This document shows, in pieces, positions 1 through 44,068 of a stretch of DNA of 64,000 nt. Numbering within the stretch: position 1 is the first letter of the stretch; each line of letters starts with the position of its first letter. This DNA comes from Dehalococcoidia bacterium (GTDB taxonomy: Bacteria; Chloroflexota; Dehalococcoidia; SM23-28-2; RBG-16-64-32): assembly GCA_041481535.1 (NCBI GenBank), contig JBGPBZ010000001.1, positions 1,065 through 65,064 of the forward strand, given 5' to 3'. The notes under the pieces were generated by a model. That model was not told the DNA's origin. It did not search any database and saw only the letters and a program-made list of their open reading frames with translations. The position numbers and the translations under genes were made by a program.

Positions 1-380
1 TCGACAACCGGACGGAGATCTACGGCTCGCAGGGGCTGACGGTCGCGGACATGGGGCGAGGCGCGGCGCTGCAGACGTTCAGCGCGCAGGGGTACGGTTA
101 CGCGGGCGAGAAGTCGCCGTGGACGCGCGGCTGGACGTGGACGGGGTTCGAGGAGGCGTGGAGCTACGGGTTCCCGCAGGAGATCGCGCACTTCGTGGAC
201 TGCATCGAGTCCGGCAAGCAGCCGATGCTGGGCGGCGAAGACGGCCGCGCGGTGCTCGAGATCATTTGCGCGGCGTACTTGTCGGCGCGGACGGGGCGGC
301 GGGAGTCCTTCGAGAGCCTCAGGACGAGCGGGAGATTGGAGCGGACGCGGACGCCGGTGGATTTCTGGCTTAGCGAGTAA
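1..380 (+). CDS. Gfo/Idh/MocA-family oxidoreductase, C-terminal fragment (gene starts upstream of the window)
   Basis: The frame is open from base 3. The C-terminal sequence (GYGYAGEKSPWTRGWTWT, EIAHFVDCIESGKQPM) is typical of the C-terminal alpha/beta domain of Gfo/Idh/MocA dehydrogenases. Confidence 0.55.
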   Translation, partial: DNRTEIYGSQGLTVADMGRGAALQTFSAQGYGYAGEKSPWTRGWTWTGFEEAWSYGFPQEIAHFVDCIESGKQPMLGGEDGRAVLEIICAAYLSARTGRRESFESLRTSGRLERTRTPVDFWLSE

Positions 381-1257
381 CGCTCCTTCGGGCGAGGAAC
401 AATCCTGCGCTAACGGCGGCCAGAAGCGCGAATGCAGCGAGTAGCGGCGCTTTCAGATCCCGGTTGCCGGACGAAGCGGGTACGACGACCGCGCCGCCAA
501 CCGCGTCTGAAGACCACACTACGGACTGAACGTTGCACTGATCGCACCCGGTCAGCTGTGCTTCAAGCAAGTTGCTTAGGCCAACGCACGCGGTTGACCA
601 GACGAACTGCAAGTCCAATGTCGAGATGGCAGTGACCTGCGGAGCGGGGCAGCCCGGTGGATTCTGAAGTATCGATACGATGGACGGCGCGAATGTTGTA
701 TGGGGACCACAGGTACTTCCGCTAGAAAAGTCGATGCAGTACGCAAGAAGCTCGACGCGAAGGGCTGAGACGTAGTGCCCGGTGTCGTTGTGCGGCCAGA
801 CAACCAGTTGGCCGGAAGGCGCCGGGCGTGGCAGCCATTCGTGGGCGGAGAACTGTGGCTGAGTGCAGCTGCAGCCCGTGTCGAACTCGAAAGTGATGGA
901 CGCTCCAGGTGCAAGACAGGCAGTTGGCCAGGTGGCGACGAACTTCGAGTAAAAGGTGCCACCGATTGGGGTGGGCACGGGCGTTGCGGTCGGGAAGCTG
1001 AAATCGATGATGTCAGCCGGTCCGTTCGGGAAGTAATCAATGGCCGGCGTGCCGCAGCCCGGAGCGGCTGTGTTGATCACCTTGGCCTGCGCCTGACCAG
1101 AGAGGTAGACGACGACGCCCGACGCTGTCTCGCCGCTGTCGTTCTGGGCGGAGAAGGACGTGTCGGCGGACGCCGTCTGTGTTGCGAATGCAACGAGGCC
1201 GAGCAGCGCCAGCGTTAGCGCCAGGGCAGCGGACCAGCAGATTCTCGCGTTTTGCAA
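370..1257 (-). CDS. Secreted Cys-rich cell-surface protein, paralog B
   Basis: Likely TTG start at 1257-1255, preceded by GAGGGGG 7 nt upstream. The signal peptide reads MQNARICWSAALALTLALLGLVAFATQTASA. A Cys-rich body carries NPPGCP, FDTGCSC and AHEW motifs shared with the upstream gene. The C-terminus is a hydrophobic helix plus an RR tail (LLAAFALLAAVSAGLFLARR). The ORF-track version (to 1701) overlaps the upstream gene and is probably an over-extension. Confidence 0.5.
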   Translation of the reverse strand: MQNARICWSAALALTLALLGLVAFATQTASADTSFSAQNDSGETASGVVVYLSGQAQAKVINTAAPGCGTPAIDYFPNGPADIIDFSFPTATPVPTPIGGTFYSKFVATWPTACLAPGASITFEFDTGCSCTQPQFSAHEWLPRPAPSGQLVVWPHNDTGHYVSALRVELLAYCIDFSSGSTCGPHTTFAPSIVSILQNPPGCPAPQVTAISTLDLQFVWSTACVGLSNLLEAQLTGCDQCNVQSVVWSSDAVGGAVVVPASSGNRDLKAPLLAAFALLAAVSAGLFLARRSVTR

Positions 1258-1301
1258 ATTACCCCCTCGAGTGGCGTCAGCATACGCCCGTTGGGGTTGT
1301 T

Positions 1302-2444
1302 TTAGTAGTTCGGCGCGCGGCGGGCGAGAGCGAATCCGGCGAAGGCCAGCGCCAGCCCCGCGAGCAGCCAGACGAACAGCCAGCCATGCTTCTCCGTCGC
1401 GGCCCCGCTGTGAGGAAGGGAAGCGGGAGTGATGACGGGCGTCGCCGATGGGTGCGACGTTGCGGTCGGGGAAGACGTCGGAGTTGGCGTGGGGGATGGC
1501 GTCGGCGACTTCGTCTGGCCTGAAGGGGTCGGCGTCGTGAAGGTCCATTCGTGGGCGTAGACCTCGGGCGGGGCGCAAGGCGAGCAGACGTTGGAGAGAT
1601 GGATGGAGAACGTCTCGCCGGGGTCGACGCAAGGGATCGGCCAGGTGATGTAGAGCGGGTCGAGGTTGTTGATGTCGAAGTCGATATTGGGATCCGGGCA
1701 ACCCGGCGGGTTTTCGACAACCATCAGGCCGTCCGTATGGTGCGAGTGGAGGATGAGGCCGCGGGCGATCTTGTTAGTCTCGTTCTGGATCGTGGCGATG
1801 AGGACGGGGTTTGGCGTGGGCGTGGGTGTGTAGTACGGCGAGGGCGGCGGCGTGTCAGTGCCGTTGCGCGGCGTGGGCGTCTGCGGCTCGGGGGTGGGCA
1901 CCGGCTGCGGGTTCTGGCAGCGGTTAGGGTTGAGGACCGCCGGGCTCACGGACGGGGCGGGCTGCCCACTGAGCGTCCAGTAGAAGCAGTTCACGCGGGG
2001 CACGCCGCAACCGGGCTGGGGCGTGACGCAGTGCGCGTCGAGGAAGACGTAGACCTGGTCGCCCGGGTCGATGCAGGGCGTTCCGTAGTTGATGTCGATC
2101 ACGGTGTAGTAGGGTGGGTCGGCGCCGGAGTGGGTGTAGGCGGGGTACGGACAGCCGGACACCGACGCAGCGGGATCGTAGTTGGCGGCTGGGTGATCGA
2201 GAAAGAGGTGCAGGTCGCTGGCGGCGGTGGCCGTGTCGTTGCAGATCAGGATCGAGTAGAAGGGTATCCAGGGAGGCGTGGGCTGGGGCGCAGACGTTAC
2301 GGTCGGCGTGCCGGTGAAGGCCCGGCAGTCTGAGCTGGAGGCCGGGAAGTCCGCCGAGGCATCTCCGGCGTGCTCGGCGATGATCGTGGTGACGAGCGCG
2401 GCACAGACGCCGAGAGCTGCAAGCAGTAGAACCGCGCGAAACAT
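1302..2444 (-). CDS. Secreted Cys-rich cell-surface protein, paralog A (two internal ~100-aa repeats, Pro/Thr linkers, LPHSG plus a C-terminal anchor)
   Basis: Signal peptide MFRAVLLLAALGVCAALV. Two internal repeats carry the P-C-[IV]-D-P-G-[DE] motif (PCIDPGDQVYVFL and PCVDPGETFSIHL). PTPTP linkers separate the domains. The C-terminus has LPHSG, then the hydrophobic WLFVWLLAGLALAFAGFALA, then RRAPNY, which resembles a sortase sorting signal. NPPGCP and AHEW motifs are shared with paralog B. Confidence 0.6.
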   Translation of the reverse strand: MFRAVLLLAALGVCAALVTTIIAEHAGDASADFPASSSDCRAFTGTPTVTSAPQPTPPWIPFYSILICNDTATAASDLHLFLDHPAANYDPAASVSGCPYPAYTHSGADPPYYTVIDINYGTPCIDPGDQVYVFLDAHCVTPQPGCGVPRVNCFYWTLSGQPAPSVSPAVLNPNRCQNPQPVPTPEPQTPTPRNGTDTPPPSPYYTPTPTPNPVLIATIQNETNKIARGLILHSHHTDGLMVVENPPGCPDPNIDFDINNLDPLYITWPIPCVDPGETFSIHLSNVCSPCAPPEVYAHEWTFTTPTPSGQTKSPTPSPTPTPTSSPTATSHPSATPVITPASLPHSGAATEKHGWLFVWLLAGLALAFAGFALARRAPNY

Positions 2445-6491: not shown

Positions 6492-6970
6492 GCGGCGACG
6501 GCTGCCTGGCCTGTGAGCTCGCCTCCGGGAAGCAGCCGCTCGTTGGTGGGACGATTCACCGAACGCCACACTGGACGGTGGAGCACTGCGTTGGGCCGCT
6601 CGGTGTCGGCACGCTGATCGTCAAGCCGCTGCGGCACGTGGTGCGCTTCGCTGAGCTGACAACGCCGGAAGCCGCTGAGTTCGGGCAGCTGCTGCACATG
6701 GTCACGCGCGCTCTCGGCGAAGAGCTGGAGCCGGACCAGACGTACATCACAGAGTGGTCGCACGCCGGGTTCGTCGCAGGGCACATCCATTTCGTCGTCC
6801 AGCCGGCTTGGGACGCGAACCGTGAGCGCTTCGAGCGTCCGGGGCCGTTCACTCAGGTCGCGATGTTCGAGTCAAACGTGCCGCTGAACGAGGCGGCGGT
6901 CGTCGCCTTCTGCGATCGCCTGCGGGCGCGAATGGCCAGCGTTCGAGGAAAGAGCGGCGGACAACAGTGA
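6488..6970 (+). CDS. HIT (histidine triad) family hydrolase
   Basis: The histidine triad motif is AGHIHFVVQP. The N-terminus is Cys-rich (CLACE). The ATG at 6488 overlaps the upstream stop (ATGA). Confidence 0.7.
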   Translation: MSGDGCLACELASGKQPLVGGTIHRTPHWTVEHCVGPLGVGTLIVKPLRHVVRFAELTTPEAAEFGQLLHMVTRALGEELEPDQTYITEWSHAGFVAGHIHFVVQPAWDANRERFERPGPFTQVAMFESNVPLNEAAVVAFCDRLRARMASVRGKSGGQQ

Positions 6971-7788
6971 GCAAGCGTGTACTGGTCATCGTCGCGCACG
7001 CGGACGACATGGAGTTCTTCGCAGGCGGCACGATCGCGAAGATGGCGGGCCTCGGCTACGAGATCCGCGAGGTGATCGCAACGAACAACGAACGCGGGAC
7101 GTTCGATCCGGAGTGGAGCGCGCGCTTTACGGCGGACACGCGGCGCGAGGAGGCGCGACGAGGCGCGGCTGTGCTTGGTGTGAACGCTGACGTTGAGTTC
7201 CTCGGGTACGAGGACGGGCGGCTGAGCGAGACGCCGCTCAACGAGCTGCGGGAACGCTGCATGCGCGCGATCCGCCGACACAAGCCGGACGTGTTGTTCA
7301 CGTGGGACGCCTTCGCGCCGTACGAAGAGCATCAGGACCACCGTTCGGTCGGGCTGGCGGCGACGGAAGCGGCGAGCTTCTCGCCCTTCCCGCTGTACCA
7401 CCCGGAGCACCGCGACGAGGGGCTGGAGCCGCACTACGTGGGTGAGCGTTACTACTTCGCGAAGTCACCGCGCGACGCGAACAAGATCGTCGACATCAGC
7501 AAGACGATCGGCACGAAGATTGATGCGCTGTGTGAGCACGTGTGCCAGATGGAGATGACGGTGGCGGAGCTGCAGACGACGCTCGCCGCCTCGGGACTCG
7601 ACATCCCGGCGCTGGCGGACGCTGACCCAAAGAACTACCGCCCGATCATCGAGAGGATGATCAGGGGCTGGGCTGGAGCCGTCGGGCAGCGAGCGGGGTT
7701 CGCGTACGGCGAAGAGTTTCGCCGCGTGAGGTTCAGTGGCGTGGAGCGCTGGGGCCGCGGCACGGTGGAGTTACCGGACGAACTGTGA
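6967..7788 (+). CDS. PIG-L / LmbE family N-acetylglucosaminyl deacetylase
   Basis: VIVAHADDMEFFAGG matches the AHPDDE-type motif, and the downstream HQDH region fits the family. The GTG start overlaps the HIT stop. Confidence 0.75.
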   Translation: MSKRVLVIVAHADDMEFFAGGTIAKMAGLGYEIREVIATNNERGTFDPEWSARFTADTRREEARRGAAVLGVNADVEFLGYEDGRLSETPLNELRERCMRAIRRHKPDVLFTWDAFAPYEEHQDHRSVGLAATEAASFSPFPLYHPEHRDEGLEPHYVGERYYFAKSPRDANKIVDISKTIGTKIDALCEHVCQMEMTVAELQTTLAASGLDIPALADADPKNYRPIIERMIRGWAGAVGQRAGFAYGEEFRRVRFSGVERWGRGTVELPDEL

Positions 7789-8682
7789 TCAGGCCGCGGA
7801 GGCCGCAGTCGCGGGCACGTGCGCTGGCGTCTCGCGGAGCAGGTCAGCGCGCGGTGTCGTCTCCGCCTCGCCGGCCGTCCCGGTGATCTCGCCGCGCTCC
7901 TCGCAGCGCTGGAAGGCCCGGACAACCTCCGGGTCGAACTGCGTCAGCGAGTTGCGGAGGATTTCCTTGATCGCCATCTCGTGCGGCATCTTCTTGCGGT
8001 GCGGCCGGTCGCTCGTCATCGCTGTGTAAGCGTCGACGACCGAGAAGATTCGCGCGCCCAGCGGGATTGCCTCGCCCTTGAGGCCGCGCGGGTAACCCTG
8101 GCCATCGAACCGCTCATGGTGCGAGCGGACGATGTCCCCGCAGTCACGCAGGTGACGGATGCTGTTCAAGAACTCGAAGCCGAATTCCGGGTGGCGCTTC
8201 ATCTGGGCCCACTCCTGCTCGGTCAGCGCGCCGGCCTTGGTGAGGATGCCCTGCGCGATCTCCACCTTGCCGCAGTCTGCGAGGAGGGCGGCCTTCTGTA
8301 GCAAGCACACATCGTCCTTGCGCATGCCCATCTCGGCGGCGAGGATGCCCGCCAGCTGCCGGACGCGCGCGATGTGATCGCCGCGCATGTCGTCGTCCAG
8401 CTCCAGCGCCGTCGTCAGAGAGCCGATCACGGCGTCGTACTTGTCGCGCGAGTTCTGAATGACCCGCTCGGCACTCTTGTTCGCGGTCTGCAGGCGCCGC
8501 AGCGCGATGTACAGGGCCGCCCACAGCCCGAGGGCCACGGCGACAACCGCTGCGGTCGCGCTGATAAGCAGCGTCACTGCTGCCAAAACGCCGCACACGG
8601 CGGCGACTCTCAGAACCAGCAGAACGGCCCCTACGTAGGGCCGCCTGCGCCCAGGCTTCTTGTTCTTAGACTTGGCTGTCAT
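7789..8682 (-). CDS. Membrane-anchored HD-GYP domain c-di-GMP phosphodiesterase
   Basis: The N-terminus has 2 TM helices. The HD-GYP signature reads HHERFDGQGYPRGL. GGGAGG lies 4 nt upstream of the ATG at 8682. Confidence 0.8.
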   Translation of the reverse strand: MTAKSKNKKPGRRRPYVGAVLLVLRVAAVCGVLAAVTLLISATAAVVAVALGLWAALYIALRRLQTANKSAERVIQNSRDKYDAVIGSLTTALELDDDMRGDHIARVRQLAGILAAEMGMRKDDVCLLQKAALLADCGKVEIAQGILTKAGALTEQEWAQMKRHPEFGFEFLNSIRHLRDCGDIVRSHHERFDGQGYPRGLKGEAIPLGARIFSVVDAYTAMTSDRPHRKKMPHEMAIKEILRNSLTQFDPEVVRAFQRCEERGEITGTAGEAETTPRADLLRETPAHVPATAASAA

Positions 8683-8691
8683 CGGTCCTCC

Positions 8692-9552
8692 CTAAACGCC
8701 CCCGAGTACATCGTCGGCTATCGCATCAATATCAGTGGGTACGTCATCGATCGGCACGGCGTTGGAAATGTGACGCGATGCCTTGTTGGCGTACATGTCC
8801 GCGTCCGCCCACTGGATCATTTCTTCAACTGTTTCGCCGCCCCACGGGTAGCCCGCCAGGCCAATCGAGACGGTGACGGTCAGCGCAACTCCGTTCGACT
8901 CGTACATTGGGATCTGCTCCAGGTCCAGCCACAAGCGGCGCGCCAGTGCGAAGGCGCCGCGCTTGTCAGTGCCCGGCATCACGATCCCGAACTCGTCGCC
9001 GCCGAGCCGCGCCGGCACGTCGTCGGAGCGAGTGTGCGCAGAGATCACACGGCCGAGGTTTGCGATTACGACGTCGCCGACGTTGTGGCCGTACTCGTCG
9101 TTGATCAGCTTGAGCTTGTCCAGGTCCATGATGACGATCGCGAGCGGCCGCTTCGATATCTTCGACTTCTCGATTTCGACACGCGCTACTTCGTAGAAGT
9201 GGCGGCGGTTGTAGAGTCCGGTCAGCTCGTCTCGATAGACCATCTCGGAGAGGTCTTCGATCTGGCTCAGCAGCTGGTTTCGGTAGCGGGCGAAGACGGC
9301 TGTTTCCATGCGGCGCATGATCACGTTGGAGAAGATGGCGTAGCTGAACGGGACGCCGGCGAGGATGCAGTAGAGAGCGAGGTGCCACCAGATACCGCCG
9401 CCCGCAGTCGCGACGGCCACGCCGAGCACCACCGACGTCACCACGGTTACGGCGATGCCGCCCGTCCAGGCGATGCGCGAGATGTTAGTCTCTTCGGCTT
9501 CCAGATCGCCTTCGGGGCGAACCATTCTCTTGGAATTGATAGTCGTGCTCAT
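8692..9552 (-). CDS. Membrane-anchored GGDEF diguanylate cyclase
   Basis: RLGGDEFG is the active site, RYNRRHF/DLDKLKLIND is the I-site-like region, and there are 2 N-terminal TM helices. The ATG at 9552 has GGAAGG 5 nt upstream. The ORF-track extension to 9765 has no RBS. Confidence 0.75.
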   Translation of the reverse strand: MSTTINSKRMVRPEGDLEAEETNISRIAWTGGIAVTVVTSVVLGVAVATAGGGIWWHLALYCILAGVPFSYAIFSNVIMRRMETAVFARYRNQLLSQIEDLSEMVYRDELTGLYNRRHFYEVARVEIEKSKISKRPLAIVIMDLDKLKLINDEYGHNVGDVVIANLGRVISAHTRSDDVPARLGGDEFGIVMPGTDKRGAFALARRLWLDLEQIPMYESNGVALTVTVSIGLAGYPWGGETVEEMIQWADADMYANKASRHISNAVPIDDVPTDIDAIADDVLGGV

Positions 9553-9624
9553 AACGCCTTCCGTCGATCGCGTAGCGATATTTAGTTGCACCGCCAAAGC
9601 GTTCAACGGTAGGCCCTCCAGCCC

Positions 9625-9725
9625 CATCGATTTTCCACGCGTCCGGCGGCCTGGCGGCCGTATCCGTTTTGGCGGACTTAGGCCCATGGCTTTGCGCCCC
9701 ACCCTTTCGGGCGGTTTGCTCTTTT
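9625..9725 (-). ncRNA. Candidate c-di-GMP-I (GEMM) riboswitch in the 5' leader of the GGDEF/HD-GYP operon
   Basis: The minus strand reads AGCAAACCGCCCGAAAGGGUGGGGCGCAAAGCCAUGGGCCUAAGUCC. This matches the GEMM core (GCAAACC, a GAAA tetraloop, GGGRCGCAAAGCC, GGGCCUAA). Downstream, CGCUUUGGCGG can pair with aptamer CCGCCAAAACG, which would form an expression platform. Confidence 0.55.
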
Positions 9726-9849
9726 CCAGCCTGGAATTGGATACGCGGAGTAGCCACGCATCCACTCAGTAAGACGCTACCTGACCAGACCAGTTACATA
9801 AGCAGAAAGTAAGGAAATGGTTGCGATCCTATAGCAGTTGCCGGACGGG

Positions 9850-27505: not shown

Positions 27506-28296
27506 AATACGACTACCTGACCAATGAGCTAACCGATTGGTACAAAATGGCACAAGAGCGCGACCGACTTGCCATCCAGCATTCCGAGTCGATCCTCGGG
27601 GCAGAAATGGCCGTGTTCGTTCAGGGGATGGGTCTCTCTCGGACGCTACTTGATTTCGTGTTGCATGGAGAAGGCCAAGTGCATGACGAAGCACTCAAGG
27701 CCAAGATGGGCGTCGCGGACAGAATGTTCCTACTGCTTTGGGCGTCTTGGCACGATACGTTGACGGGACGATACACCGCAGCCGCTGAGCATTGGCGCAG
27801 TTTACTTGAAGCGCCCAATTTCCTGCTCGCCTTTACCTGGGATCCATCATTAGCTGAGAGATGGATCAAAGGAGACGATGTCAAGTTCGAGAAGGTGCGG
27901 AAGGCAATTCGGAATGCGCTGAAGGACGAAGGCTCGAGCGACTTCGCCAGAGAATGGGACCAACGACACCTTCGAGACGACAGGGCTGTTCAAGCGTTTT
28001 CGCATACGAGCACAAAGGCCATCTACTCTATGCTCGCGACGGCGACAGACGAACGTGGGAATCTCGGGTATCAACTAAGGAGTGAACTCTCAGTTGATCG
28101 GACGAGAGAACTCTGCATCTTTCTAGCGAAGGATGCTTGGGAGCTAGCGCGCGCATGTGGGGCGGCCTTCTCAGACAACACCAAGGTAGCTGAACTCTGG
28201 GGAGGGCCCGGCAAGATATTGCTCGAAGAGAATATTGGAAGGCTCACGGACGCTCTATCGGAGTTGGAAGCGCCTAGTGCGGCGGTGAAGTCATGA
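27502..28296 (+). CDS. Hypothetical protein X1 (264 aa, all-alpha, low GC) inserted between dnaJ and hspR
   Basis: ATGA overlap with dnaJ at its start and with hspR at its stop. GC is about 52%, against about 67% for the flanks. No recognisable domain. Confidence 0.55.
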   Translation: MKYDYLTNELTDWYKMAQERDRLAIQHSESILGAEMAVFVQGMGLSRTLLDFVLHGEGQVHDEALKAKMGVADRMFLLLWASWHDTLTGRYTAAAEHWRSLLEAPNFLLAFTWDPSLAERWIKGDDVKFEKVRKAIRNALKDEGSSDFAREWDQRHLRDDRAVQAFSHTSTKAIYSMLATATDERGNLGYQLRSELSVDRTRELCIFLAKDAWELARACGAAFSDNTKVAELWGGPGKILLEENIGRLTDALSELEAPSAAVKS

Positions 28297-28646
28297 ACGA
28301 AAGACAAACGTACGACGAAGAAGTGCCGTGTTTCGTGATCAGCGTGGCGGCGCGGATGGTGGGGATGCACGCGCAGAGCCTGCGCAACTACGAGCGGATG
28401 GGGCTGATCCAGCCCGGGCGCTCGCAGGGGCGGGTGAGGCTGTACTCGCAGGCCGATATCGAGCGTCTACGGAACATCCAGCGCATGGTTCAGGACCTGG
28501 GTGTGAACCTTGCCGGGGTGGAAGTGATCATGAACATGCGCGAAAGCATGCGGCGAATGGAGCACGAGATGGACCGCCTGCGCGAGAAGCTGCAGGAGTA
28601 TCGGAACAGGACGCTGCCGGCGGTGAAGGGGCGGGCGACGGGATGA
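28293..28646 (+). CDS. hspR: MerR-family heat-shock repressor HspR
   Basis: N-terminal MerR HTH (CFVISVAARMVGMHAQSLRNYERMGL) followed by a coiled-coil. This is the typical position after dnaJ. Confidence 0.75.
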   Translation: MNERQTYDEEVPCFVISVAARMVGMHAQSLRNYERMGLIQPGRSQGRVRLYSQADIERLRNIQRMVQDLGVNLAGVEVIMNMRESMRRMEHEMDRLREKLQEYRNRTLPAVKGRATG

Positions 28647-29443
28647 AGAAGAACCCAGGACGTGAGATAACCAAGCGGATCGACGAACTAATCGGTCGGA
28701 TGAAGAGGTTCAACGTTTACGGGTCGCACCTTGCCTACTCGGATGCGGACGTCGAGATACTAAAGAACGACATTCGCGAATTCGCTCGAACGCTTCCAGA
28801 ATCGGAGACTGGCAAGATTCTCGAGATTCTGAGATACACCCACCTTCGGGGATCTCTCGCTCGAAGCTCTGACCACTTTTGGACTGACTACGGTCATTCT
28901 CTGACAACCCAATTCGAGCTCATCAAACATCGCATCGCAAGAGGCCAAGTGGCTCTTGAGGAGCCGAACCTCGACATCCTGATCGACCCCAAGACACCAC
29001 ACTCGGCGTATGTGGCGCTACGTCAAATAATCGAGACGGTTCAGAGCGACATCATGATGGTTGATGCCTGGATGGATCGGATTTTGTTCGACCTCCTAAC
29101 TAACCTAAAGAGTCCCTCACAGGTTCGATTTCTGACCCGGGCAGACTTCTTGCCGGGAGACTTCGCGATTGAAGCTAAGAAGTTTGGACAACAATACAAC
29201 CACAAAGTGGAAGTTCGCATTCACCCAGACGTGCATGATCGATACCTGCTCGTCGATGGGGCTGCGTTTGCGACCGGGGCATCATTCAAAGACTTCGGAC
29301 GAAAGATGTCATACGTCATGAAGGTTAAGGACATGGCCGCACCGACAATTTCCATGCTGGAGAAGAGATGGCAAGAGGCCTCACCCTCTAAGCGAGCCGC
29401 GCCGAATGCCGAACAGGCTAAGCAGAAAGTAGAACGGAAATGA
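28643..29443 (+). CDS. Hypothetical protein X2 with a C-terminal PLD-like (HKD-like) domain carrying H-D-R in place of H-x-K
   Basis: [21 protein letters not shown] aligns with the Nuc-type VHAKFMVIDDEWALIGSANF. GC is about 50%. There are 4-bp overlaps with hspR and clpB. Confidence 0.5.
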
Positions 29444-31917
29444 TGAGACAGGATAGGTTTACAGAGGGCGCGCAGGAAGTGCTGGCGGCGAGCCAGGAGC
29501 TCGTGCGCAAGGAACGCCACTCGCAGTGGGACGTGGAGCACGTGTTGCTGGCGCTGCTGCAGTACGACAAGGGCATCACGCCGGAGATCTTCGCCAAGCT
29601 GGGCGTCGATACGGAACGGCTGCGCGCGGCGGTGCGAGAGGCGCTCGACAGGTCGGGGAAGCTGCAGTACGAGGTGGTGCAGATTTTCACGACGCCGCGC
29701 ATTGTGAAGATGCTGGAAGCGGCGAACGCGGAGGCGGAGCGCCTGAAGGACGAGTACGTCGGCGTGGAGCACATGCTGGTCGCGATCACAGATGAGCGCG
29801 ACGGCGAGTCGGCGCGGATTCTGCGCGACTTCGGCATCGACAAAGAGAAGGTGTACCGCGCGCTGCAAGAGGTGCGCGGCGGCGCCAAGCTCGACAGCCC
29901 GACGGCGGAGTCGAAGTACAAGGCGCTCGACAAGTTCTCGATCGACCTGACGGAGGCGGCGCGGCAGGGCAAGCTCGACCCGGTGATTGGCCGCGACGAC
30001 GAGATCCGGCGCGTGATGCAGATCCTGAACCGGCGCACGAAGAACAACCCGGTGATCATCGGCGAAGCCGGCGTCGGCAAGACGGCGATCGCGGAAGGCC
30101 TGGCGCAGAAGATCGTGGCCGGAGACGTGCCGGAGAACCTGAAATCGAAGCGCGTGCTCGCGCTCGACATGGGCGCGATGGTCGCAGGCTCGAAGTTCCG
30201 CGGCGAGTTCGAGGAGCGCCTGAAGGCCGTGATGGACGAGATCAAGCGGGCGCGCGGCGAGATGATCATCTTCATCGACGAGATCCACCAGGTGATGGGC
30301 GCGGGCAGCGCTGAGGGATCGATCGACGCGTCGACGATGATGAAGCCGGCGCTGGCCCGCGGCGAGCTGCAGTGCATCGGCGCGACGACGCTGGACGAAT
30401 ACCGCAAATACATCGAAAGGGACGCCGCGCTCGAGCGGCGGTTCGCACCGGTGTACGTGGACGAGCCTTCGGAGGAAGAGGCGATCGCGATCCTGAAGGG
30501 GCTACGCCCGCGCTACGAGGCGCACCACAAGGTGAAGATCACCGACGAGGCGATCGAGGCGGCAGTGCAGCTTTCGTCGCGCTACCTGACCGAGCGCTAC
30601 CTGCCGGACAAGGCGATCGACCTGATCGACGAGGCCAGCTCCAAGCACGTGATCGACGCGCAGAGCATGCCTGCGAACGTCCGCGAGCTGCAGAAGCGGG
30701 TCGAGGAGCTGGAACGCGAGCAAGAGGCGGCGGCCGGGCGCGAAGACTGGGAGCAGTCGGCGAGCATCAAGCAATCGCTCGAAGGCGCGCGCTCGGAATT
30801 CGAGTCGGCGCGTGATGGGTGGCTAGCTGAGACGGGGCACGACGACATGACGGTGGACGAGCACGACATCGCGGAGCTGGTACACAAGATCACGGGCATC
30901 CCGGTGAGCCGGATGCTGGAAGGCGAGCCGGAGAAGCTGCTGCAGATGGAGGAGCGACTGCACGACCGCGTGATCGGGCAAGACCGGGCGATCGAGGCGG
31001 TGTCGGACGCGATTCGTCGCGCGCGGGCCGGACTGAAAGACCCGAACAGGCCGATCGGATCGTTCATCTTCCTCGGGCAGACGGGCGTCGGGAAGACCGA
31101 GCTGGCGAAGGCGCTGGCCGAGTTCATGTTCGACGACGAGGAAGCTATGATCCGTCTAGACATGAGCGAGTACCAGGAACGGCACACGGTGTCGCGGATG
31201 ATCGGCTCGCCACCCGGCTACGTCGGCTACGACGAAGGCGGCCAGCTGACCGAAGCGGTGCGCAGGCGGCCGTACCGGGTGATCCTGCTCGACGAGATCG
31301 AGAAGGCGAACCCGGAGGTGTTCAACGTCCTGTTGCAGATGCTCGACGACGGGCGCCTTACAGACGGGCACGGGCGCACGGTGGACTTCCGCAACACGGT
31401 TGTGATCATGACCTCGAACCTGGGGACGGAGGCGTTCCACAAGCCGCAACTCGGGTTCGGGCTGCCGACGAGCAAGCCGTCCGAGACGGAGCGCGACAAG
31501 CAGAAGGCCGAGATCGAGAAGGCGCTCCGCCAGACGTTCCGGCCGGAGTTGCTGAACCGCATCGACGACATCATCATCTTCGACCCGCTGACTGAGGACG
31601 ACCTGAAGCGCATCGTGGAGTTGCTGCTGAACGACGTGGCGGAACGCCTCGGCGACAAGCACGTCGAGTTGCAGCTGACCGACGCGGCGAAGGCGGCGCT
31701 GGTGCGCGAGGGCTACGACCCGGTGTACGGCGCGCGCCCGTTGCGCCGCGTGATCGAGCGCCGCATCGCGAACCCGCTTTCGAAGCGGATCCTCTCGGGC
31801 GAGTTCGCAGACGGCGACTCCGTGGAAGTGACGTACGCGGACGGAGAGTACGCGTTCGCGAAGAAGACGGCCGCCACGAACGGACGCAAGAAGGAGCGGG
31901 TGACGGTCGAGGCGTAA
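29440..31917 (+). CDS. clpB: Clp/Hsp100 ATPase, ClpB-like with an unusually short middle domain (825 aa)
   Basis: Two Clp_N repeats and two AAA+ modules (GEAGVGKTA and GQTGVGKTE). About 90 aa separate NBD1 from GIPVSRM, compared with about 150 aa in E. coli ClpB. Confidence 0.8.
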
Positions 31918-31966
31918 CGGAAACAGTAGAGAACGAGAGGCGCTCGCTTTCGCGAGCGTCTCTCGT

Positions 31967-32413
31967 CTAATCCTGTGTTAGTAGCAGATGAATCAGCGGA
32001 CGCTCTGACAATGGTTTGCCTCCGGGGAGCAATAGCACCAATTGATTGAGCTGTTCCTCTGGTGCGTTGCCTATTACGTCCAAGGCTATGGATCTTGCTG
32101 ATAGCCAAAGCGCAATCTTGTCGACGTTCTTCTCGTGGCCAGCCGCGATGCTGACTGTAAATTCGTAGAGTTCTTCGTCGTACGCGCACAACACTTGGCT
32201 GTTGGTCAGCAAGAAGACTATCGCTGCCGCCAGTCCCATTCGCTTGTTCCCATCCATGAACGGGTGATCGAGGATGATCGAACGCATGAGAACCGCGGCC
32301 TTGGCAAAGTCGCCGACATAGGCCTCCTCGCCAAATGCTGATTGTCGGGGGAGAGCGAGGACACCTTCGAGGACATCGCGACCGCGTTCGCCAAGCAACG
32401 ACAGGACGGGCAT
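31967..32413 (-). CDS. doc: Fic/Doc family toxin (death-on-curing)
   Basis: HPFMDGNKRMG is the Doc/Fic motif. GC is about 50%. Confidence 0.75.
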   Translation of the reverse strand: MPVLSLLGERGRDVLEGVLALPRQSAFGEEAYVGDFAKAAVLMRSIILDHPFMDGNKRMGLAAAIVFLLTNSQVLCAYDEELYEFTVSIAAGHEKNVDKIALWLSARSIALDVIGNAPEEQLNQLVLLLPGGKPLSERPLIHLLLTQD

Positions 32414-40864: not shown

Positions 40865-42832
40865 ATGAACGGTCGTTGGTTACGCAATAGCTTCATTTAC
40901 TTGCTCATATTGGTGGCGATCGTCGCCATCATCTTCACTGTCTTCTACGGCGGTAACTCCGGCGCGCAAAAAGAGACCGTCGGTGACTTTGTGGCGCACG
41001 TGCAGGCTGGCGAGATCAAGAAGATAGACGTCTCCGGCAGCAAGCTCACCTATACGCTCAACGGCGACGAGAACGAGTCCTACACGCAGATGGAAGAGGG
41101 CGACACCGTCAACAGTCTGCTCTCCCAGGCCAACCCCGCGATTCGGCTCGGCGACGACAAGTACCCCGAAGTAAACATCAAGGGGACTAGCGGCTGGAAG
41201 ACAGCGCTCAGTATTCTTCTACAGTTCATTCCGATCATCATCATCGTCGGTATCTTGTTCTTCTTCCTGCGCCAGGCACAGGGGTCGAATAACCAGGCGC
41301 TCAACTTCGGTAAGAGCCGCGCCCGCATGTTCAGCGGCACGAGGCCCAGCGTCACGTTCTTAGACGTGGCCGGAGTGGAGGAGGCAAGGGACGAGCTGAA
41401 AGAGGTCGTCGAGTTCCTCAAGTACCCGGAGAAGTTCGCCGCCCTCGGCGCACGCATTCCGAAGGGCGTGCTGCTCATCGGACCGCCAGGCACGGGCAAG
41501 ACGCTGCTGGCCAAGGCCGTCGCCGGCGAGGCTGGCGTGCCGTTCTTCTCGATCTCAGGCTCGGAGTTCGTCGAGATGTTCGTCGGTGTCGGCGCGTCTC
41601 GTGTGCGCGATCTGTTCGATCAGGCCAAGCGCAACTCCCCGTGCATCGTCTTCGTGGACGAGATCGACGCCGTCGGCCGCCACCGTGGCGCAGGCCTGGG
41701 CGGCAGCCACGACGAGCGCGAGCAAACTCTGAACCAGATCCTCGTCGAGATGGACGGGTTCGACACGAACACCAACGTAATCGTCATCGCGGCCACGAAC
41801 CGGCCGGACATTCTCGACCCGGCACTGCTTCGCCCGGGCCGCTTCGACCGGCAGGTCGTCCTCGACCAGCCGGACATCAAGGGCCGCAAGGCGATCCTCG
41901 AAGTGCACGCGAAGGGAAAGCCACTGGACCCGGTTGTGAACCTGGAGACGGTGGCAAAACAGACGCCTGGCTTCTCCGGCGCTGACCTCGCGAACCTCGT
42001 AAACGAGGCCGCGATCCTGGCCGCGCGCCGGGGCAAGAAGAAGATCACGATGCCAGAGCTCGACGAAGCGGTCGACCGCGTAATCGCGGGGCCGGAGCGC
42101 CGCAGCCGCGTAATCAGCAAGAAAGAACGCGAAATTATCGCTTACCACGAGGCCGGCCACGCGCTGGTCGGCTACATGCTCCCGAACGCAGACCCACCGT
42201 ACAAGATCAGCATCGTCGCGCGCGGAATGGCGGGCGGCTTCACCCGCTTCCTGCCGGAAGAGGACCGCCACCTTCACTCCCGCAGCGAGTTGCTGGACCG
42301 ACTCGCGGCGTTCCTCGGCGGCCTCGTCGCGGAGGAGCTGGTCTTCGGCGAAGCGACTACTGGGCCTTCGGACGACATCGGACGAGCGACGTCTATCGCG
42401 CGCCAGATGGTGACGCAGTGGGGCATGAGCGAGCGTCTCGGGCCCCGGACGTTCGGGCGCAAGGAAGAGTTGGTGTTCCTGGGTCGCGAGATCTCGGAGT
42501 CACGCAACTACTCGGACAAGGTGGCGGAAGAGATTGACGAAGAGGTCCGGCAGATCATCGAGCACGCGTACCAGACGGCGAAGCGCCTTCTGACGGAGCA
42601 CCGCACGAAACTTGACGCTCTCGTCACGGCGGTGATGGAACAAGAGACGATTGAGGGCGAAGCGCTACAGCAGCTGCTGTCCGGCACCGGTGCGCCCGGC
42701 CAGACGATGCCGGAAGGCGAGACGCCGCAGACGGAAGAGCGCAGCCCGGAGCCGCAGAAGCCGAACGTGGCACCGCCGAAGCCGGGCCTGGCCTGGGACA
42801 CGCCGTCGGTCGTCGATCCGCCTGTGGACTAG
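40865..42832 (+). CDS. ftsH: ATP-dependent zinc metalloprotease FtsH
   Basis: Two TM helices, the AAA module GPPGTGKT, the SRH region, and the HEAGHA zinc site. There is a Pro-rich C-terminal tail. Confidence 0.9.
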
Positions 42833-42943
42833 CGTCTAACTGGACACGAACGGCCCTCGTCGATACAATCGCTTGGTGCGCTCGAATCTAAGCGCGCAAT
42901 AACGGCCGCCATAGGCCGCGAATCACCCCACGGAGGCAATCCC

Positions 42944-43579
42944 ATTTACGCAATAGTCCGCGCCGGTGGCAGGCAATACCGGGTCGAACCGAGCCAGATT
43001 CTCGACGTTGACCGGCTGCCCGCCAACGTCGGCGATACAGTTGACCTTGGCGTGCTGATGCTCGGCGGAGACGGCGAGACGCACATCGGCACACCGCTCG
43101 TGGACGGCGCGCGCGTCGTCGCGGAGGTGATCGAGCACTTGCGCGGGGAGAAGATCCTCGTCTTCAAATACAAGAACAAGGTGCGGTACCGCCGCCGCCA
43201 CGGACACCGCCAGGACTACACCCGCCTTTCCATCAAAGAGATCGTAACCGCGGCTGGAAGCGTATCTTCCGTTGAGAGGCCCCGCCGCCGTCGCGTCGAG
43301 GTGAAGGTCGACGCGGACGAAGAACAGCCGGTCACCGAGGCGATGACCGAAGCGCCGGAGGCCGAACCGACACCCCGACGCCGTCGCGCGCCACGCGCCG
43401 AAGAGGCCGAGCCGGTCGCCGAAGCGGAAGCCCCCGAGGCCGAAGCATCGACGGAGCAACCGGCACGGCGGACTCGCGTGCGGAAGGCTGAGCCGGAAGG
43501 CGAAGCGCCGCCGGAGTCCGACAAGCCGGGCCGCCGGAGCCGCGCTGCGAAGCCGGACGCCGAGGGCGAAGGAGAATAA
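42944..43579 (+). CDS. rplU: 50S ribosomal protein L21 with a probable ATT start codon and an Ala/Glu/Pro/Arg-rich C-terminal extension
   Basis: The conserved N-terminus (M)YAIVRAGGRQYRV is encoded directly after GGAGG plus a 7-nt spacer by ATT TAC GCA. No ATG, GTG or TTG lies in frame between the upstream stop (42887) and Tyr2. Confidence 0.6.
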   Translation: MYAIVRAGGRQYRVEPSQILDVDRLPANVGDTVDLGVLMLGGDGETHIGTPLVDGARVVAEVIEHLRGEKILVFKYKNKVRYRRRHGHRQDYTRLSIKEIVTAAGSVSSVERPRRRRVEVKVDADEEQPVTEAMTEAPEAEPTPRRRRAPRAEEAEPVAEAEAPEAEASTEQPARRTRVRKAEPEGEAPPESDKPGRRSRAAKPDAEGEGE

Positions 43580-43582
43580 ACG

Positions 43583-43849
43583 ATGGCACATAAGAAGAGC
43601 GGTGGAAGCGCCAAGAACGGCCGCGACTCTCACGGGCAGCGGCTGGGCGTGAAGCGCTACGACGGCCAGATAGTGCTTCCGGGCACGATCATCGTGCGGC
43701 AGCGCGGGACGAAGATTCACCCCGGCGTAAACGTCGGGATGGGGCGCGACTTCACGATCTTCTCGCTGATCGAGGGAAAGGTTAAGTTCGCGGCGTACGC
43801 GAAGGACGGCCGACGCAAGGTCAGCGTACAAACGGTATCGGCAGAATAG
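43583..43849 (+). CDS. rpmA: 50S ribosomal protein L27
   Basis: [16 protein letters not shown] is canonical. The protein is 88 aa. Confidence 0.9.
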
Positions 43850-43867
43850 GCAGAACGAAGGAACGGC

Positions 43868-44068
43868 ATGAAAGAGAAGATTCACCCCGAATACGTCGTG
43901 GCGACTGTGCACTGCGCGTGCGGCAACCGCTGGGAAACGCACGCCACAGTACCCGACCTGAAGATTGAGGTGTGCAGCAACTGCCACCCGTTCTTCACGG
44001 GCGAGCAACGCATCGTTGACACGGCAGGCCGCGTCGAGCGGTTCAAGCGCCGCTACAACATGAAGTAG
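43868..44068 (+). CDS. rpmE: 50S ribosomal protein L31
   Basis: MKEKIHPEY plus the CxxC..CxxC zinc motif. The protein is 66 aa. Confidence 0.9.

What the first reader, a model, noticed from the sequence alone, without database searches (positions are those of the whole stretch)
370..2444. Tandem paralogous Cys-rich secreted proteins with an internal repeat domain and sortase-like C-terminal anchors
Two adjacent minus-strand genes encode proteins with signal peptides, Pro/Thr linkers and C-terminal hydrophobic helices ending in Arg-rich tails. The upstream one carries LPHSG directly before the helix, which looks like a sortase sorting signal. Each protein contains two copies of a roughly 100-aa Cys-rich module with shared motifs (NPPGCP, P-C-[IV]-D-P-G-[DE], AHEW) that I do not recognise as a named domain. 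The arrangement suggests a new cell-surface adhesin or S-layer-associated domain family that has duplicated in tandem.
Basis: seen in the sequence. Interest (0 to 1): 0.6.

Follow-up and report, generated by a model that had tools for sequence, protein, structure and literature searches.

The report
Unnamed disulfide β-sandwich surface proteins, Chloroflexota
Two neighbouring genes of a soil Chloroflexota-type bacterium encode small exported cell-surface proteins built from an uncatalogued, disulfide-braced β-sandwich module; one carries a sortase-type (LPXTG-like) anchor and the other a different recurrent C-terminal tail, so this is a real but fairly ordinary kind of surface protein whose domain and second tail have no name yet.

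Summary
Gene A (1302-2444, minus strand, 380 aa) and gene B (370-1257, minus strand, TTG start, 295 aa) each encode a signal peptide, two copies of a ~100-aa Cys-rich module, and a C-terminal hydrophobic helix with an Arg tail.

The module matches nothing in Pfam, NCBIfam or PDB sequences. AlphaFold2 predicts a confident 7-strand β-sandwich (pLDDT 93) with no significant Foldseek match in the PDB. An exhaustive profile search finds only 278 cluster representatives among 1.84 billion. The only two genomes named are Chloroflexota MAGs.

In relatives the same module sits in front of LPXTG-like tails, dockerins, T9SS tails, an IPTL-CTERM tail, or a second tail type. It therefore behaves as an extracellular "choice-of-anchor" passenger.

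A's LPHSG is a variant of LPXTG: proteins in the same genomic slot in related contigs have LPQTG and LPQSG. No sortase could be looked for beyond the 64 kb.

B has no LPXTG. Its tail (PVGGxVxL, then a Ser/Gly spacer ending in SSG, a TM helix and RRR) recurs in at least 21 family members and on unrelated passengers, and no NCBIfam model covers it.

A and B share only about 27% identity, so they are old paralogues, not a recent tandem duplication. The function (binding, adhesion or spacer) is inferred. Interest is moderate.

The parts
1302..2444 (-). Gene A, 380 aa: signal peptide, module 1, P/T linker, module 2, P/T linker, LPHSG, TM helix, RR tail.
   Evidence: ORF list and sequence. Identical protein P0001 is in NCBI/JGI as 'hypothetical protein'. 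GC3 is 0.86.
2352..2444 (-). A signal peptide, residues 1-31 (MFR, a hydrophobic core, then ASA|D).
   Evidence: Hydropathy segment 1-26. The AxA site was read from the sequence; no SignalP was run.
1917..2327 (-). A module 1 (core residues 57-166) with flanking arms bracketed by Cys40 and Cys176. It has 6 core Cys plus the 2 bracket Cys.
   Evidence: HMM domain hits. The alignment of 'type-1' modules has invariant C16/C46/C72/C87/C94/C101. The DCR..FT and NP..RC bracket is also present in P0002, P0003, P0039 and P0046.
1821..1946 (-). A Pro/Thr-rich linker 1 (residues 167-208).
   Evidence: Read from the sequence.
1518..1820 (-). A module 2 (residues 209-309): NPPGCP, PCVDPGE, CSPC, AHEW.
   Evidence: HMM hits. 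AF2 model me8a4f2d3e5ff has pLDDT 92.9 and 7 β-strands. Its closest match inside the window is B module 1 (E 1e-10).
1419..1517 (-). A Pro/Thr/Ser-rich linker 2 (residues 310-342), the presumed stalk.
   Evidence: Read from the sequence.
1404..1418 (-). LPHSG (residues 343-347), inside the extended motif TPASLPHSG. It is a variant of the LPXTG sortase signal.
   Evidence: Same-position LPQTG, LPQSG, LPKTG, LPATG, LPVAG and LPIAG occur in 7 relatives. Enrichment over shuffles is shown. TIGR01167 is not matched.
1305..1382 (-). A C-terminal TM helix (residues 355-374) plus the RRAPNY tail.
   Evidence: Hydropathy segment 353-375.
1258..1301 (-). 44-nt A-B spacer with the Shine-Dalgarno sequence GAGGGGG (1262-1268) for B. 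The two genes are probably co-transcribed.
   Evidence: Sequence. No terminator-like site was found on the minus strand.
370..1257 (-). Gene B, 295 aa (TTG start): signal peptide, module 1, module 2, class-2 tail.
   Evidence: P0007 is identical in NCBI. JGI calls the same 295 aa.
1165..1257 (-). B signal peptide, residues 1-31 (ASA|D).
   Evidence: Hydropathy segment 4-30. AF2 predicts helix 7-25.
811..1164 (-). B module 1 (residues 32-149) with a ~21-residue low-confidence insertion at 80-100.
   Evidence: HMM hits. AF2 strands span 33-142, with pLDDT<50 for residues 80-100.
508..810 (-). B module 2 (residues 150-250) with an extra Cys174-Cys183 insertion.
   Evidence: HMM hits. AF2 strands span 150-249.
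466..504 (-). B juxtamembrane motif AVGGAVVV-PASSG (residues 252-264): the 'class-2' tail motif.
   Evidence: [VI]GGx[VI]x[LIV] followed by ..SSG.. is conserved in at least 21 family members. AF2 gives pLDDT<50 for 254-269, so it is not part of the fold. It is enriched over shuffles, 20 observed vs 1.6 expected.
373..450 (-). B C-terminal TM helix (residues 270-289) plus the RRSVTR tail. The 3' end overlaps the convergent GFO_IDH_MocA gene by 11 nt.
   Evidence: Hydropathy segment 268-291. AF2 helix 270-294. The overlap is seen.

Best explanation
A and B are two old paralogues of a small, uncatalogued family of extracellular proteins. The only genomes named for the family are Chloroflexota MAGs.

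Proposed mechanism:
1. Each protein is exported by Sec and cut by signal peptidase at ASA|D (inferred).
2. Each folds outside the cell into two independent 7-strand β-sandwich modules. The fold is predicted. The modules are braced by up to three disulfides: one invariant pair (PGC to CVDPG) and two covarying pairs (inferred from Cys conservation and covariation).
3. Pro/Thr-rich stalks hold the modules away from the membrane.
4. A is then most likely cleaved within LPHSG by a sortase encoded elsewhere in the genome and linked to the cell wall (inferred from LPQTG/LPQSG proteins in the same slot of related contigs).
5. B stays tethered by its C-terminal helix with an Arg-rich cytoplasmic tail, or is processed at its own conserved PVGGxVxL...SSG tail by an enzyme not yet identified.

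What the module does. It has no conserved polar pocket. The only near-invariant residues are one Asn, one Gly-Cys, one Trp, one Cys and one Gly. It diverges much faster than the flanking genes. In relatives it is fused to many different anchoring devices. So it most likely acts as a displayed binding or adhesion surface, or as a structural spacer, and not as an enzyme.
For: - Gene structure, signal peptides and tails.
- Module reality without circularity: an HMM built from non-window modules hits A at 1.5e-20 and 2.2e-14 and B at 2.4e-25.
- Family size: 278 representatives at E<=1e-3 and 105 at E<=1e-10 among 1.84 billion.
- Fold: pLDDT 92.9 for module A2. In full-length B, two β domains plus a terminal helix are predicted.
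- Disulfides: columns 42 and 67 are Cys in 115 of 115 modules; columns 82/86 have phi 0.76 and columns 12/93 phi 0.62.
- Extracellular passenger behaviour: among 102 members, Pfam finds dockerin in 11, TSP_3 in 5, T9SS Por_Secre_tail in 2, and IPTL-CTERM and cohesin in 1 each. Motif counts on the same set give 35 TM tails, of which 8 are LPx[TSA]G and 24 are class-2.
- Sortase signal: P0039 (LPQTG) and P0046 (LPQSG) lie in the same slot between the acetyltransferase-PALP gene and the GFO_IDH_MocA gene. The motif occurs 8 times against a shuffle mean of 0.48.
- Fast divergence: slot proteins are 43-49% identical, flanking proteins 75-79%.
- Taxon: the only two relatives found in the genome collection are Chloroflexi/Chloroflexota MAGs, and P0157 is also from a Chloroflexi MAG.
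Against: - No sortase was found. Only a catalytic-motif regex was run over the 64 kb, and the rest of the genome is not available.
- TIGR01167 (LPXTG_anchor) does not score A at all. However, it also misses the homologues with canonical LPQTG/LPKTG, so this is weak evidence.
- Position 4 of A's motif is Ser, not Thr.
- No coordinates were available, so the disulfide pairing and any binding surface were not inspected.
- No ligand, expression or localisation data exist.
- Fold matches are only generic: best Foldseek E 0.075 and best query-normalised TM-score 0.55.
Confidence: 0.72

Rival explanations
1. Neither protein is sortase-processed. Both are plain type-I membrane proteins held by the C-terminal helix, LPHSG is a relic or a coincidence, and the conserved tail motifs are only juxtamembrane stalk features.
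For: TIGR01167 does not match A and does not reach its cut-off in any of the other seven LPx[TSA]G members scanned (P0006 comes closest, 14.2 bits against 15.9). No sortase motif is present in the window. A has Ser instead of Thr. B has an otherwise similar tail without LPXTG. B's VPASSG reads like A's TPAS[LPH]SG with the LPx core deleted (my reading of the sequences).
Against: LPx[TSA]G occurs in 8 of 35 TM-tailed members at a fixed distance from the helix, against 0.48 expected. It sits in a conserved context, TPA[SA]LPx[TS]G. Canonical LPQTG and LPKTG are among these.
Confidence: 0.2
2. The module is a carbohydrate- or polymer-binding module of a cohesin-dockerin-type extracellular assembly, and A and B are the cell-bound members of that system.
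For: Pfam finds dockerin in 11 of 102 family members, and a motif count finds dockerin-like C-termini in about 25. One member has a cohesin domain. The weak fold matches include cohesins and CBM2. The N-termini of P0002 and P0004 look cohesin-like to me (read; not tested).
Against: A and B have no dockerin or cohesin. The fold matches are not significant (E >= 0.075). No glycoside hydrolase or scaffoldin lies nearby. The module has no conserved aromatic platform beyond one Trp.
Confidence: 0.15
3. The module is a distant, unrecognised member of an existing Ig-like/E-set Pfam clan (for example CARDB/DUF11-like), so the 'new domain' is only a sensitivity gap.
For: A 7-strand β-sandwich is predicted. 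The 'x-N-x-[TS]-G...A..L.[IV]' first hairpin recalls CARDB/DUF11 motifs (from my own memory; not tested). The weak Foldseek matches are all β-sandwich domains.
Confidence: 0.3

Closest known systems
LPXTG sortase-anchored surface proteins of monoderm bacteria with Ig-like repeat modules and Pro/Thr stalks (MSCRAMM-type architecture; TIGR01167 signal)
   Same: They share an N-terminal signal peptide, tandem β-sandwich modules, a low-complexity stalk, a pentapeptide followed by a hydrophobic helix and a basic tail (protein A), and fast-evolving ectodomains.
   Different: The module has no sequence or significant fold match to Cna-B, DEv-IgG, SdrD-B or any Pfam family. Its stability appears to come from disulfides. 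The motif is LPHSG. The TIGR01167 HMM is not matched. The host lineage is Chloroflexota. No sortase has been identified.
'Choice-of-anchor' passenger domains (NCBIfam naming by D. Haft for domains that pair with alternative C-terminal sorting signals; from my own knowledge)
   Same: The same module occurs with LPXTG-like tails, class-2 tails, dockerins, T9SS Por_Secre_tail and IPTL-CTERM.
   Different: No choice-of-anchor family appears among the NCBIfam matches shown for the members.
Tripartite C-terminal sorting signals: PEP-CTERM/exosortase, GlyGly-CTERM/rhombosortase, PGF-CTERM/archaeosortase, GVDTG_CTERM (NF058571)
   Same: B's tail has a short conserved motif, a TM helix and an Arg cluster at the extreme C-terminus. 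The same tail occurs on unrelated passenger domains (L021, L033, P0157).
   Different: The motif sequence is different ([P][VI]GGx[VA][ED][LIV]). A 10-25-residue Ser/Gly/Asp spacer ending in SSG separates the motif from the helix. The only NCBIfam matches are sub-threshold: GVDTG_CTERM at 17.5 bits (cut-off 29) matches the TM/Arg part only, and the LPXTG_anchor and Microco_LAVTG matches also lie at the extreme C-terminus. No cognate enzyme is known.
Generic bacterial β-sandwich modules: cohesins (5n5p, 2xdh), CBM2 (6qfs), YcnI/DUF1775 (7me6, 3esm)
   Same: They share an all-β sandwich of similar size, and they are the top Foldseek matches.
   Different: E-values are 0.075-0.6, query-normalised TM-scores 0.39-0.47 and identity 11-17%. 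This is not evidence of homology.

Membership tests
LPXTG cell-wall sorting signal (sortase substrate), protein A | An LPXTG pentapeptide near the C-terminus. | tested here: inconclusive
   A has LPHSG, with Ser at position 4. Proteins in the same slot of related contigs have LPQTG and LPQSG.
LPXTG cell-wall sorting signal (sortase substrate), protein A | A hydrophobic helix within about 10 residues after the motif, followed by basic residues, plus an N-terminal signal peptide. | tested here: met
   There is a 7-residue gap, a helix at 355-374, then RR. The signal peptide covers residues 1-31.
LPXTG cell-wall sorting signal (sortase substrate), protein A | A score above the TIGR01167 cut-off. 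| tested here: not met
   A gives no hit at E<=10. The model also misses the LPQTG/LPKTG homologues, and P0006 scores 14.2 against a cut-off of 15.9.
LPXTG cell-wall sorting signal (sortase substrate), protein A | A sortase encoded in the same genome. | not testable with these tools
   Only 64 kb are available. No TLxTC-type motif occurs in the window ORFs, and no sortase was found in the fetched neighbourhoods.
LPXTG cell-wall sorting signal, protein B | An LPXTG-like pentapeptide. | tested here: not met
   No LPx[TSA]G is present. The tail reads AVGGAVVVPASSGNRDLK followed by the TM helix and RR.
Any Pfam-A or NCBIfam domain for the repeat module | An HMM match covering the module. | tested here: not met
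   A and B give no Pfam family at E<=10 and only one weak NCBIfam match over A's C-terminal linker and tail, outside the modules. Among 102 members, only co-occurring domains match.
Known C-terminal sorting domains in NCBIfam (PEP-CTERM, GlyGly-CTERM, PGF-CTERM, GVDTG_CTERM, Microco_LAVTG and others) for B's tail | An HMM score above the curated cut-off that includes the signature motif. | tested here: not met
   B gives none at E<=10. In 10 class-2 homologues there are only sub-threshold hits, all at the extreme C-terminus (TM/Arg region).
S-layer or SLH-anchored proteins | SLH or another wall-binding domain, and a large self-assembling protein. | tested here: not met
   No SLH domain was found. 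The proteins are small (295 and 380 aa).
Cohesin-dockerin system components | A dockerin or cohesin domain in the protein. | tested here: not met
   Neither occurs in A or B. They occur only in other family members.
Disulfide-stabilised extracellular β-sandwich (Ig-like) module, a structural class and not a family | A confident all-β sandwich prediction with paired conserved Cys. | tested here: met
   pLDDT is 92.9 with 7 strands. There are invariant and covarying Cys columns. The pairing itself was not seen in coordinates.

The most novel reading that the evidence does not exclude
B's tail ([P][VI]GGx[VA][ED][LIV], then a Ser/Gly/Asp spacer ending in SSG, a TM helix and (W)YARRR) is a previously undescribed C-terminal protein-sorting signal of Chloroflexota, recognised by a dedicated processing enzyme yet to be identified. 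The Cys-rich module is a new 'choice-of-anchor' passenger domain. The slot between the PALP gene and the GFO gene is a fast-evolving surface-protein locus that switches between sortase-type and class-2-type anchoring.
Probability: 0.25. Interest if true: 0.6.

Novelty: new variant of a known kind. Interest (0 to 1): 0.38.

Why it matters
Chloroflexota are abundant in soils and sediments, but their cell envelope and surface proteins are poorly described. This locus contributes three things:
- A compact, confidently modelled but unnamed extracellular domain that could be added to the domain databases.
- Evidence that LPXTG-type signals with relaxed motifs (LPx[TSA]G) are used on this family, for which the only named genomes are Chloroflexota MAGs.
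- A candidate second C-terminal tail that recurs on unrelated passenger domains and could be tested as a sorting signal.

None of this overturns current knowledge. It mainly fills an annotation gap and gives a handle for envelope proteomics.

Tried and rejected
- The search for related loci with the 15-module alignment failed because no stretch was conserved enough. With protein A alone it found no relative in 185,579 species genomes. Only the tighter 'type-1' module alignment worked, giving 2 Chloroflexota MAGs.
- The exact look-up of B's encoding contig returned nothing.
- TIGR01167 cannot decide the sortase signal here, because it also misses the canonical LPQTG/LPKTG homologues.
- GVDTG_CTERM looked like a lead for the class-2 tail, but it matches only the TM/Arg part and stays below its cut-off. 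A literature search for 'GVDTG' gave only irrelevant hits.
- The literature search for sortase + Chloroflexi + LPXTG gave nothing useful.
- I tested whether the single-gene slots in relatives arose by recombination between the A and B tails. The DNA alignment of the 3' ends is inconclusive, because the last codons are constrained by the 11-nt overlap with the convergent GFO gene.
- The promoter/terminator scan gave no usable signal on the minus strand.
- The profile search with the tail alignment was limited by its word filter and gave only one significant extra protein, P0157. A back-translated DNA pattern for G-A-A-W-Y-A-R-R (the GAAWYARRR end of some class-2 tails) matched 23 stretches in the metagenome collection, of which 2 carry true class-2 tails and the rest are chance or out-of-frame matches.
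- I rejected 'recent tandem duplication' (27% identity; distinct subfamilies) and 'S-layer protein' (no SLH; small size).
Full report
**1. What is in the sequence**

The region holds two minus-strand genes.
- Gene A is 1302-2444 (ATG, 380 aa).
- Gene B is 370-1257 (295 aa). Its TTG start at 1257-1255 is preceded by GAGGGGG at 1268-1262 with a 4-nt spacer.
- The long 443-aa ORF listed for B (370-1701) is an upstream extension that overlaps A. The TTG start is supported in two ways: JGI's independent gene call on an identical contig also gives 295 aa, and homologues P0008, P0009 and P0028 begin at the equivalent position with signal peptides.
- Codon-position GC (A 0.59/0.57/0.86; B 0.59/0.56/0.71) marks the minus strand as coding. 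The plus-strand ORFs here are the usual shadows of a 65% GC genome.
- The 44-nt spacer has no terminator-like site on the minus strand, so A and B are probably co-transcribed. This is an inference.

**2. Topology**

- Each protein has exactly two hydrophobic segments, one at each end: A 1-26 and 353-375, B 4-30 and 268-291.
- Both N-termini read as a basic n-region, a hydrophobic core and ASA|D at residues 29-32. I read this from the sequence; no predictor was run.
- Both C-termini are a ~20-residue helix followed by RR.
- A has LPHSG at residues 343-347, seven residues before the helix.
- A has long Pro/Thr linkers (167-208 and 310-342). B has only short ones.

**3. The repeat module is real**

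- BLASTP aligns A residues 220-310 with B 38-150 (E 1e-10), and A 240-290 with B 194-241 (about 1e-5).
- I aligned 15 modules from A, B and seven homologues. Invariant positions are one Asn (the N-D/E-T/S turn), the Gly-Cys of 'PGC', the Cys of 'CVDPG' and one Trp.
- To avoid circularity I rebuilt the HMM from 111 modules that are not from the window. It hits A at 61-163 (i-E 1.5e-20) and 217-303 (2.2e-14), and B overall at E 2.4e-25, all at a database size of 1.8 billion.
- No other ORF in the 64 kb carries the module.

**4. How big and how known is the family**

- The word-indexed search found only 5 relatives of A and 2 of B among 5.8 billion proteins.
- The exhaustive profile search found 278 cluster representatives at E<=1e-3 and 105 at E<=1e-10 among 1.84 billion.
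- Pfam and NCBIfam give no match to either module in A or B, even at E<=10; the single weak NCBIfam hit lies in A's C-terminal linker and tail.
- Scanning 102 family members finds no family that covers the module, only co-occurring domains.
- A profile search of PDB sequences gives nothing.
- The only relatives found among 185,579 species genomes are two Chloroflexi/Chloroflexota MAGs (VBJS01000003, JADFRV010000114).

**5. Structure**

- AlphaFold2 on module A2 with the 15-row alignment gives pLDDT 92.9 and pTM 0.83, with seven β-strands.
- Full-length B gives two β domains (33-142 and 150-249), an N-terminal helix, a C-terminal helix (270-294) and a disordered segment at 254-269.
- Foldseek against the PDB gives no match with E<=0.001. 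The best matches are cohesins, CBM2, YcnI/DUF1775 and Ig-like domains of chitinases and aminopeptidases, at E 0.075-0.6, with a highest query-normalised TM-score of 0.55.
- The fold class is therefore an ordinary β-sandwich, with no demonstrable homologue.

**6. Disulfides (inferred)**

- Over 115 near-complete modules, columns 42 and 67 are Cys in every one.
- Columns 82/86 covary (phi 0.76), and so do columns 12/93 (phi 0.62).
- A module 1 has all six of these Cys, plus a conserved bracket pair (C40 and C176) that is also present in P0002, P0003, P0039 and P0046.
- A module 2 and both B modules have four core Cys each. B module 2 has an extra pair in an insertion.
- Mature A has 12 Cys and mature B has 10, all assignable to pairs.
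- I could not read model coordinates, so the pairing is not verified.

**7. Anchors**

Of the 102 members examined, 35 end in a TM helix plus basic tail.
- Class 1 (8 members). These have LPx[TSA]G 5-15 residues before the helix, usually within TPA[SA]LPx[TS]G: LPQTG, LPKTG (twice), LPATG, LPQSG, LPHSG (= A), LPVAG and LPIAG. Composition-preserving shuffles give a mean of 0.48 and a maximum of 5 in 2000 trials.
- Class 2 (24 members, including B). These have a different tail: [P][VI]GGx[VIA]x[LIV], a 10-25-residue Ser/Gly/Asp-rich spacer that usually ends in SSG or DSG, a TM helix, and often (W)Y-A-R-R-R. The VGG motif is seen 20 times against 1.6 expected.
- In B the class-2 segment is predicted disordered. 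In several homologues it follows a Pro/Thr linker or a non-module domain. It is therefore not part of the module fold.
- No NCBIfam sorting-domain model reaches its cut-off on these tails. GVDTG_CTERM, LPXTG_anchor and Microco_LAVTG give sub-threshold hits at the extreme C-terminus, in the TM/Arg region.
- The class-2 tail also occurs on unrelated passengers:
  - P0157 from a Chloroflexi MAG (E 1.8e-8).
  - A 46-residue-repeat protein in L021.
  - An acidic TSP3-like protein in L033.
- That is the behaviour of a modular sorting signal, but no cognate enzyme is known and none was found here.
- The remaining members end in dockerins (Pfam finds 11; a motif count finds about 25), T9SS tails (2) or IPTL-CTERM (1), or are truncated.
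- The module is thus always a secreted passenger with interchangeable anchoring.

**8. Sortase question for A**

- TIGR01167 does not score A. It equally fails on the LPQTG and LPKTG homologues, and P0006 is just under the cut-off. The HMM is therefore uninformative here.
- The strongest evidence comes from position in the genome. In related contigs the gene between the acetyltransferase-PALP gene and the GFO_IDH_MocA gene is P0039 (LPQTG, locus L012) or P0046 (LPQSG, locus L004). Both are 43-49% identical to A's first module.
- A sortase gene could not be sought beyond the window. A catalytic-motif regex finds none in the 64 kb.

**9. Evolution of the locus**

- The window is syntenic with L004 over more than 10 kb: transketolase, cation efflux, GGDEF, HD, PIG-L, DUF2652, ceramidase, PALP.
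- Flanking proteins are 75-79% identical between these relatives. The slot proteins are only 43-49% identical.
- The slot holds one A-type single-module gene in L004 and L012, one B-type gene in L007, and A plus B in the window.
- A's second module, with its AHEW ending, resembles B-type first modules most closely. This suggests module exchange between the two lineages.
- A and B are therefore old paralogues in a variable, fast-evolving surface-protein slot, not a recent tandem duplicate.
- The 3' end of whichever gene abuts GFO overlaps it by 11 nt in the window, L004 and L007.

**10. Function**

- Shown: the gene structure, the module family, the predicted fold, the tail motifs and their enrichment, and the synteny.
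- Inferred: export, disulfide pairing, sortase cleavage of A, membrane tethering or processing of B, and a binding, adhesion or spacer role.
- Three observations argue for a displayed binding or structural module and against an enzyme: no conserved polar cluster, fast divergence, and promiscuous anchoring.

**11. Verdict**

It is a new domain family and a sortase-type signal on A. It is not a sortase signal on B, not a recent duplication, and there is no S-layer evidence.
- Novelty: a new variant of a known kind, namely modular anchored surface proteins.
- The most novel open possibility is that the class-2 tail is an undescribed sorting signal.

Noticed in passing
window 9642-9730 (-): There is a c-di-GMP-I riboswitch here (RF01051, 75.4 bits, E 5.5e-13). 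It lies inside the 5' end of the long ORF 8692-9765, so the true start of that GGDEF (diguanylate cyclase) gene is probably near 9550. The riboswitch would then sit in the leader of a GGDEF gene followed by an HD-domain gene (7789-8691). A c-di-GMP sensor in front of c-di-GMP turnover genes suggests feedback control.
   Followed up: partly
L021 (minus strand, ORF ending about 920 nt from the strand start) and L033 (minus strand, nt 6643-7755 on that strand); protein P0157: The class-2 tail (PVGGxxL/ELP, then a spacer ending in SG, a TM helix and AWYARRR) occurs on proteins without the Cys-rich module. One is a protein of 46-residue 'YxDxTNxDLKHAYW...' repeats, another is an acidic TSP3-like secreted protein, and the third is a fragment from a Chloroflexi MAG. 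This suggests a modular C-terminal signal.
   Followed up: partly
window 370-380; L004 10755-10765; L007 1445-1455: The surface-protein gene and the convergent GFO_IDH_MocA oxidoreductase gene overlap by 11 nt at their 3' ends in all three related contigs, whichever family member occupies the slot.
   Followed up: partly
window 370-1257 compared with 1302-2444: Gene B has a clearly lower third-position GC (0.71) than gene A (0.86) and than most neighbouring genes (about 0.8-0.9). This is possibly a trace of a different history, such as recombination or transfer, for B.
   Followed up: no
window 370-2444 compared with L004, L007 and L012: The slot between the acetyltransferase-PALP gene and the GFO_IDH_MocA gene holds different family members in related organisms: an A-type single module with LPQTG or LPQSG, a B-type gene alone, or A plus B. 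The slot proteins diverge far faster (43-49% identity) than the flanking proteins (75-79%).
   Followed up: yes
window 28000-32000 and 42000-44000: GC dips locally to 0.58 at 28-30 kb. AT skew is strongly positive at 28-32 kb (0.17-0.23) and at 42-44 kb (0.26), compared with the rest of the window. I did not examine these regions.
   Followed up: no
L003 5048-7282 (+); L002 6554-7138 (+): In the Chloroflexota MAG JADFRV010000114, a 744-aa secreted protein combines an N-terminal cohesin-like region, one copy of the module, a further unknown domain and a C-terminus that looks TSP3/dockerin-like by eye (none of these extra domains was scanned). In L002, a neighbouring ORF ends in the same Cys/Asp-rich C-terminal segment ('...CYNALADDD...DNR...') seen in family members P0018, P0068, P0076 and P0098.
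   Followed up: no
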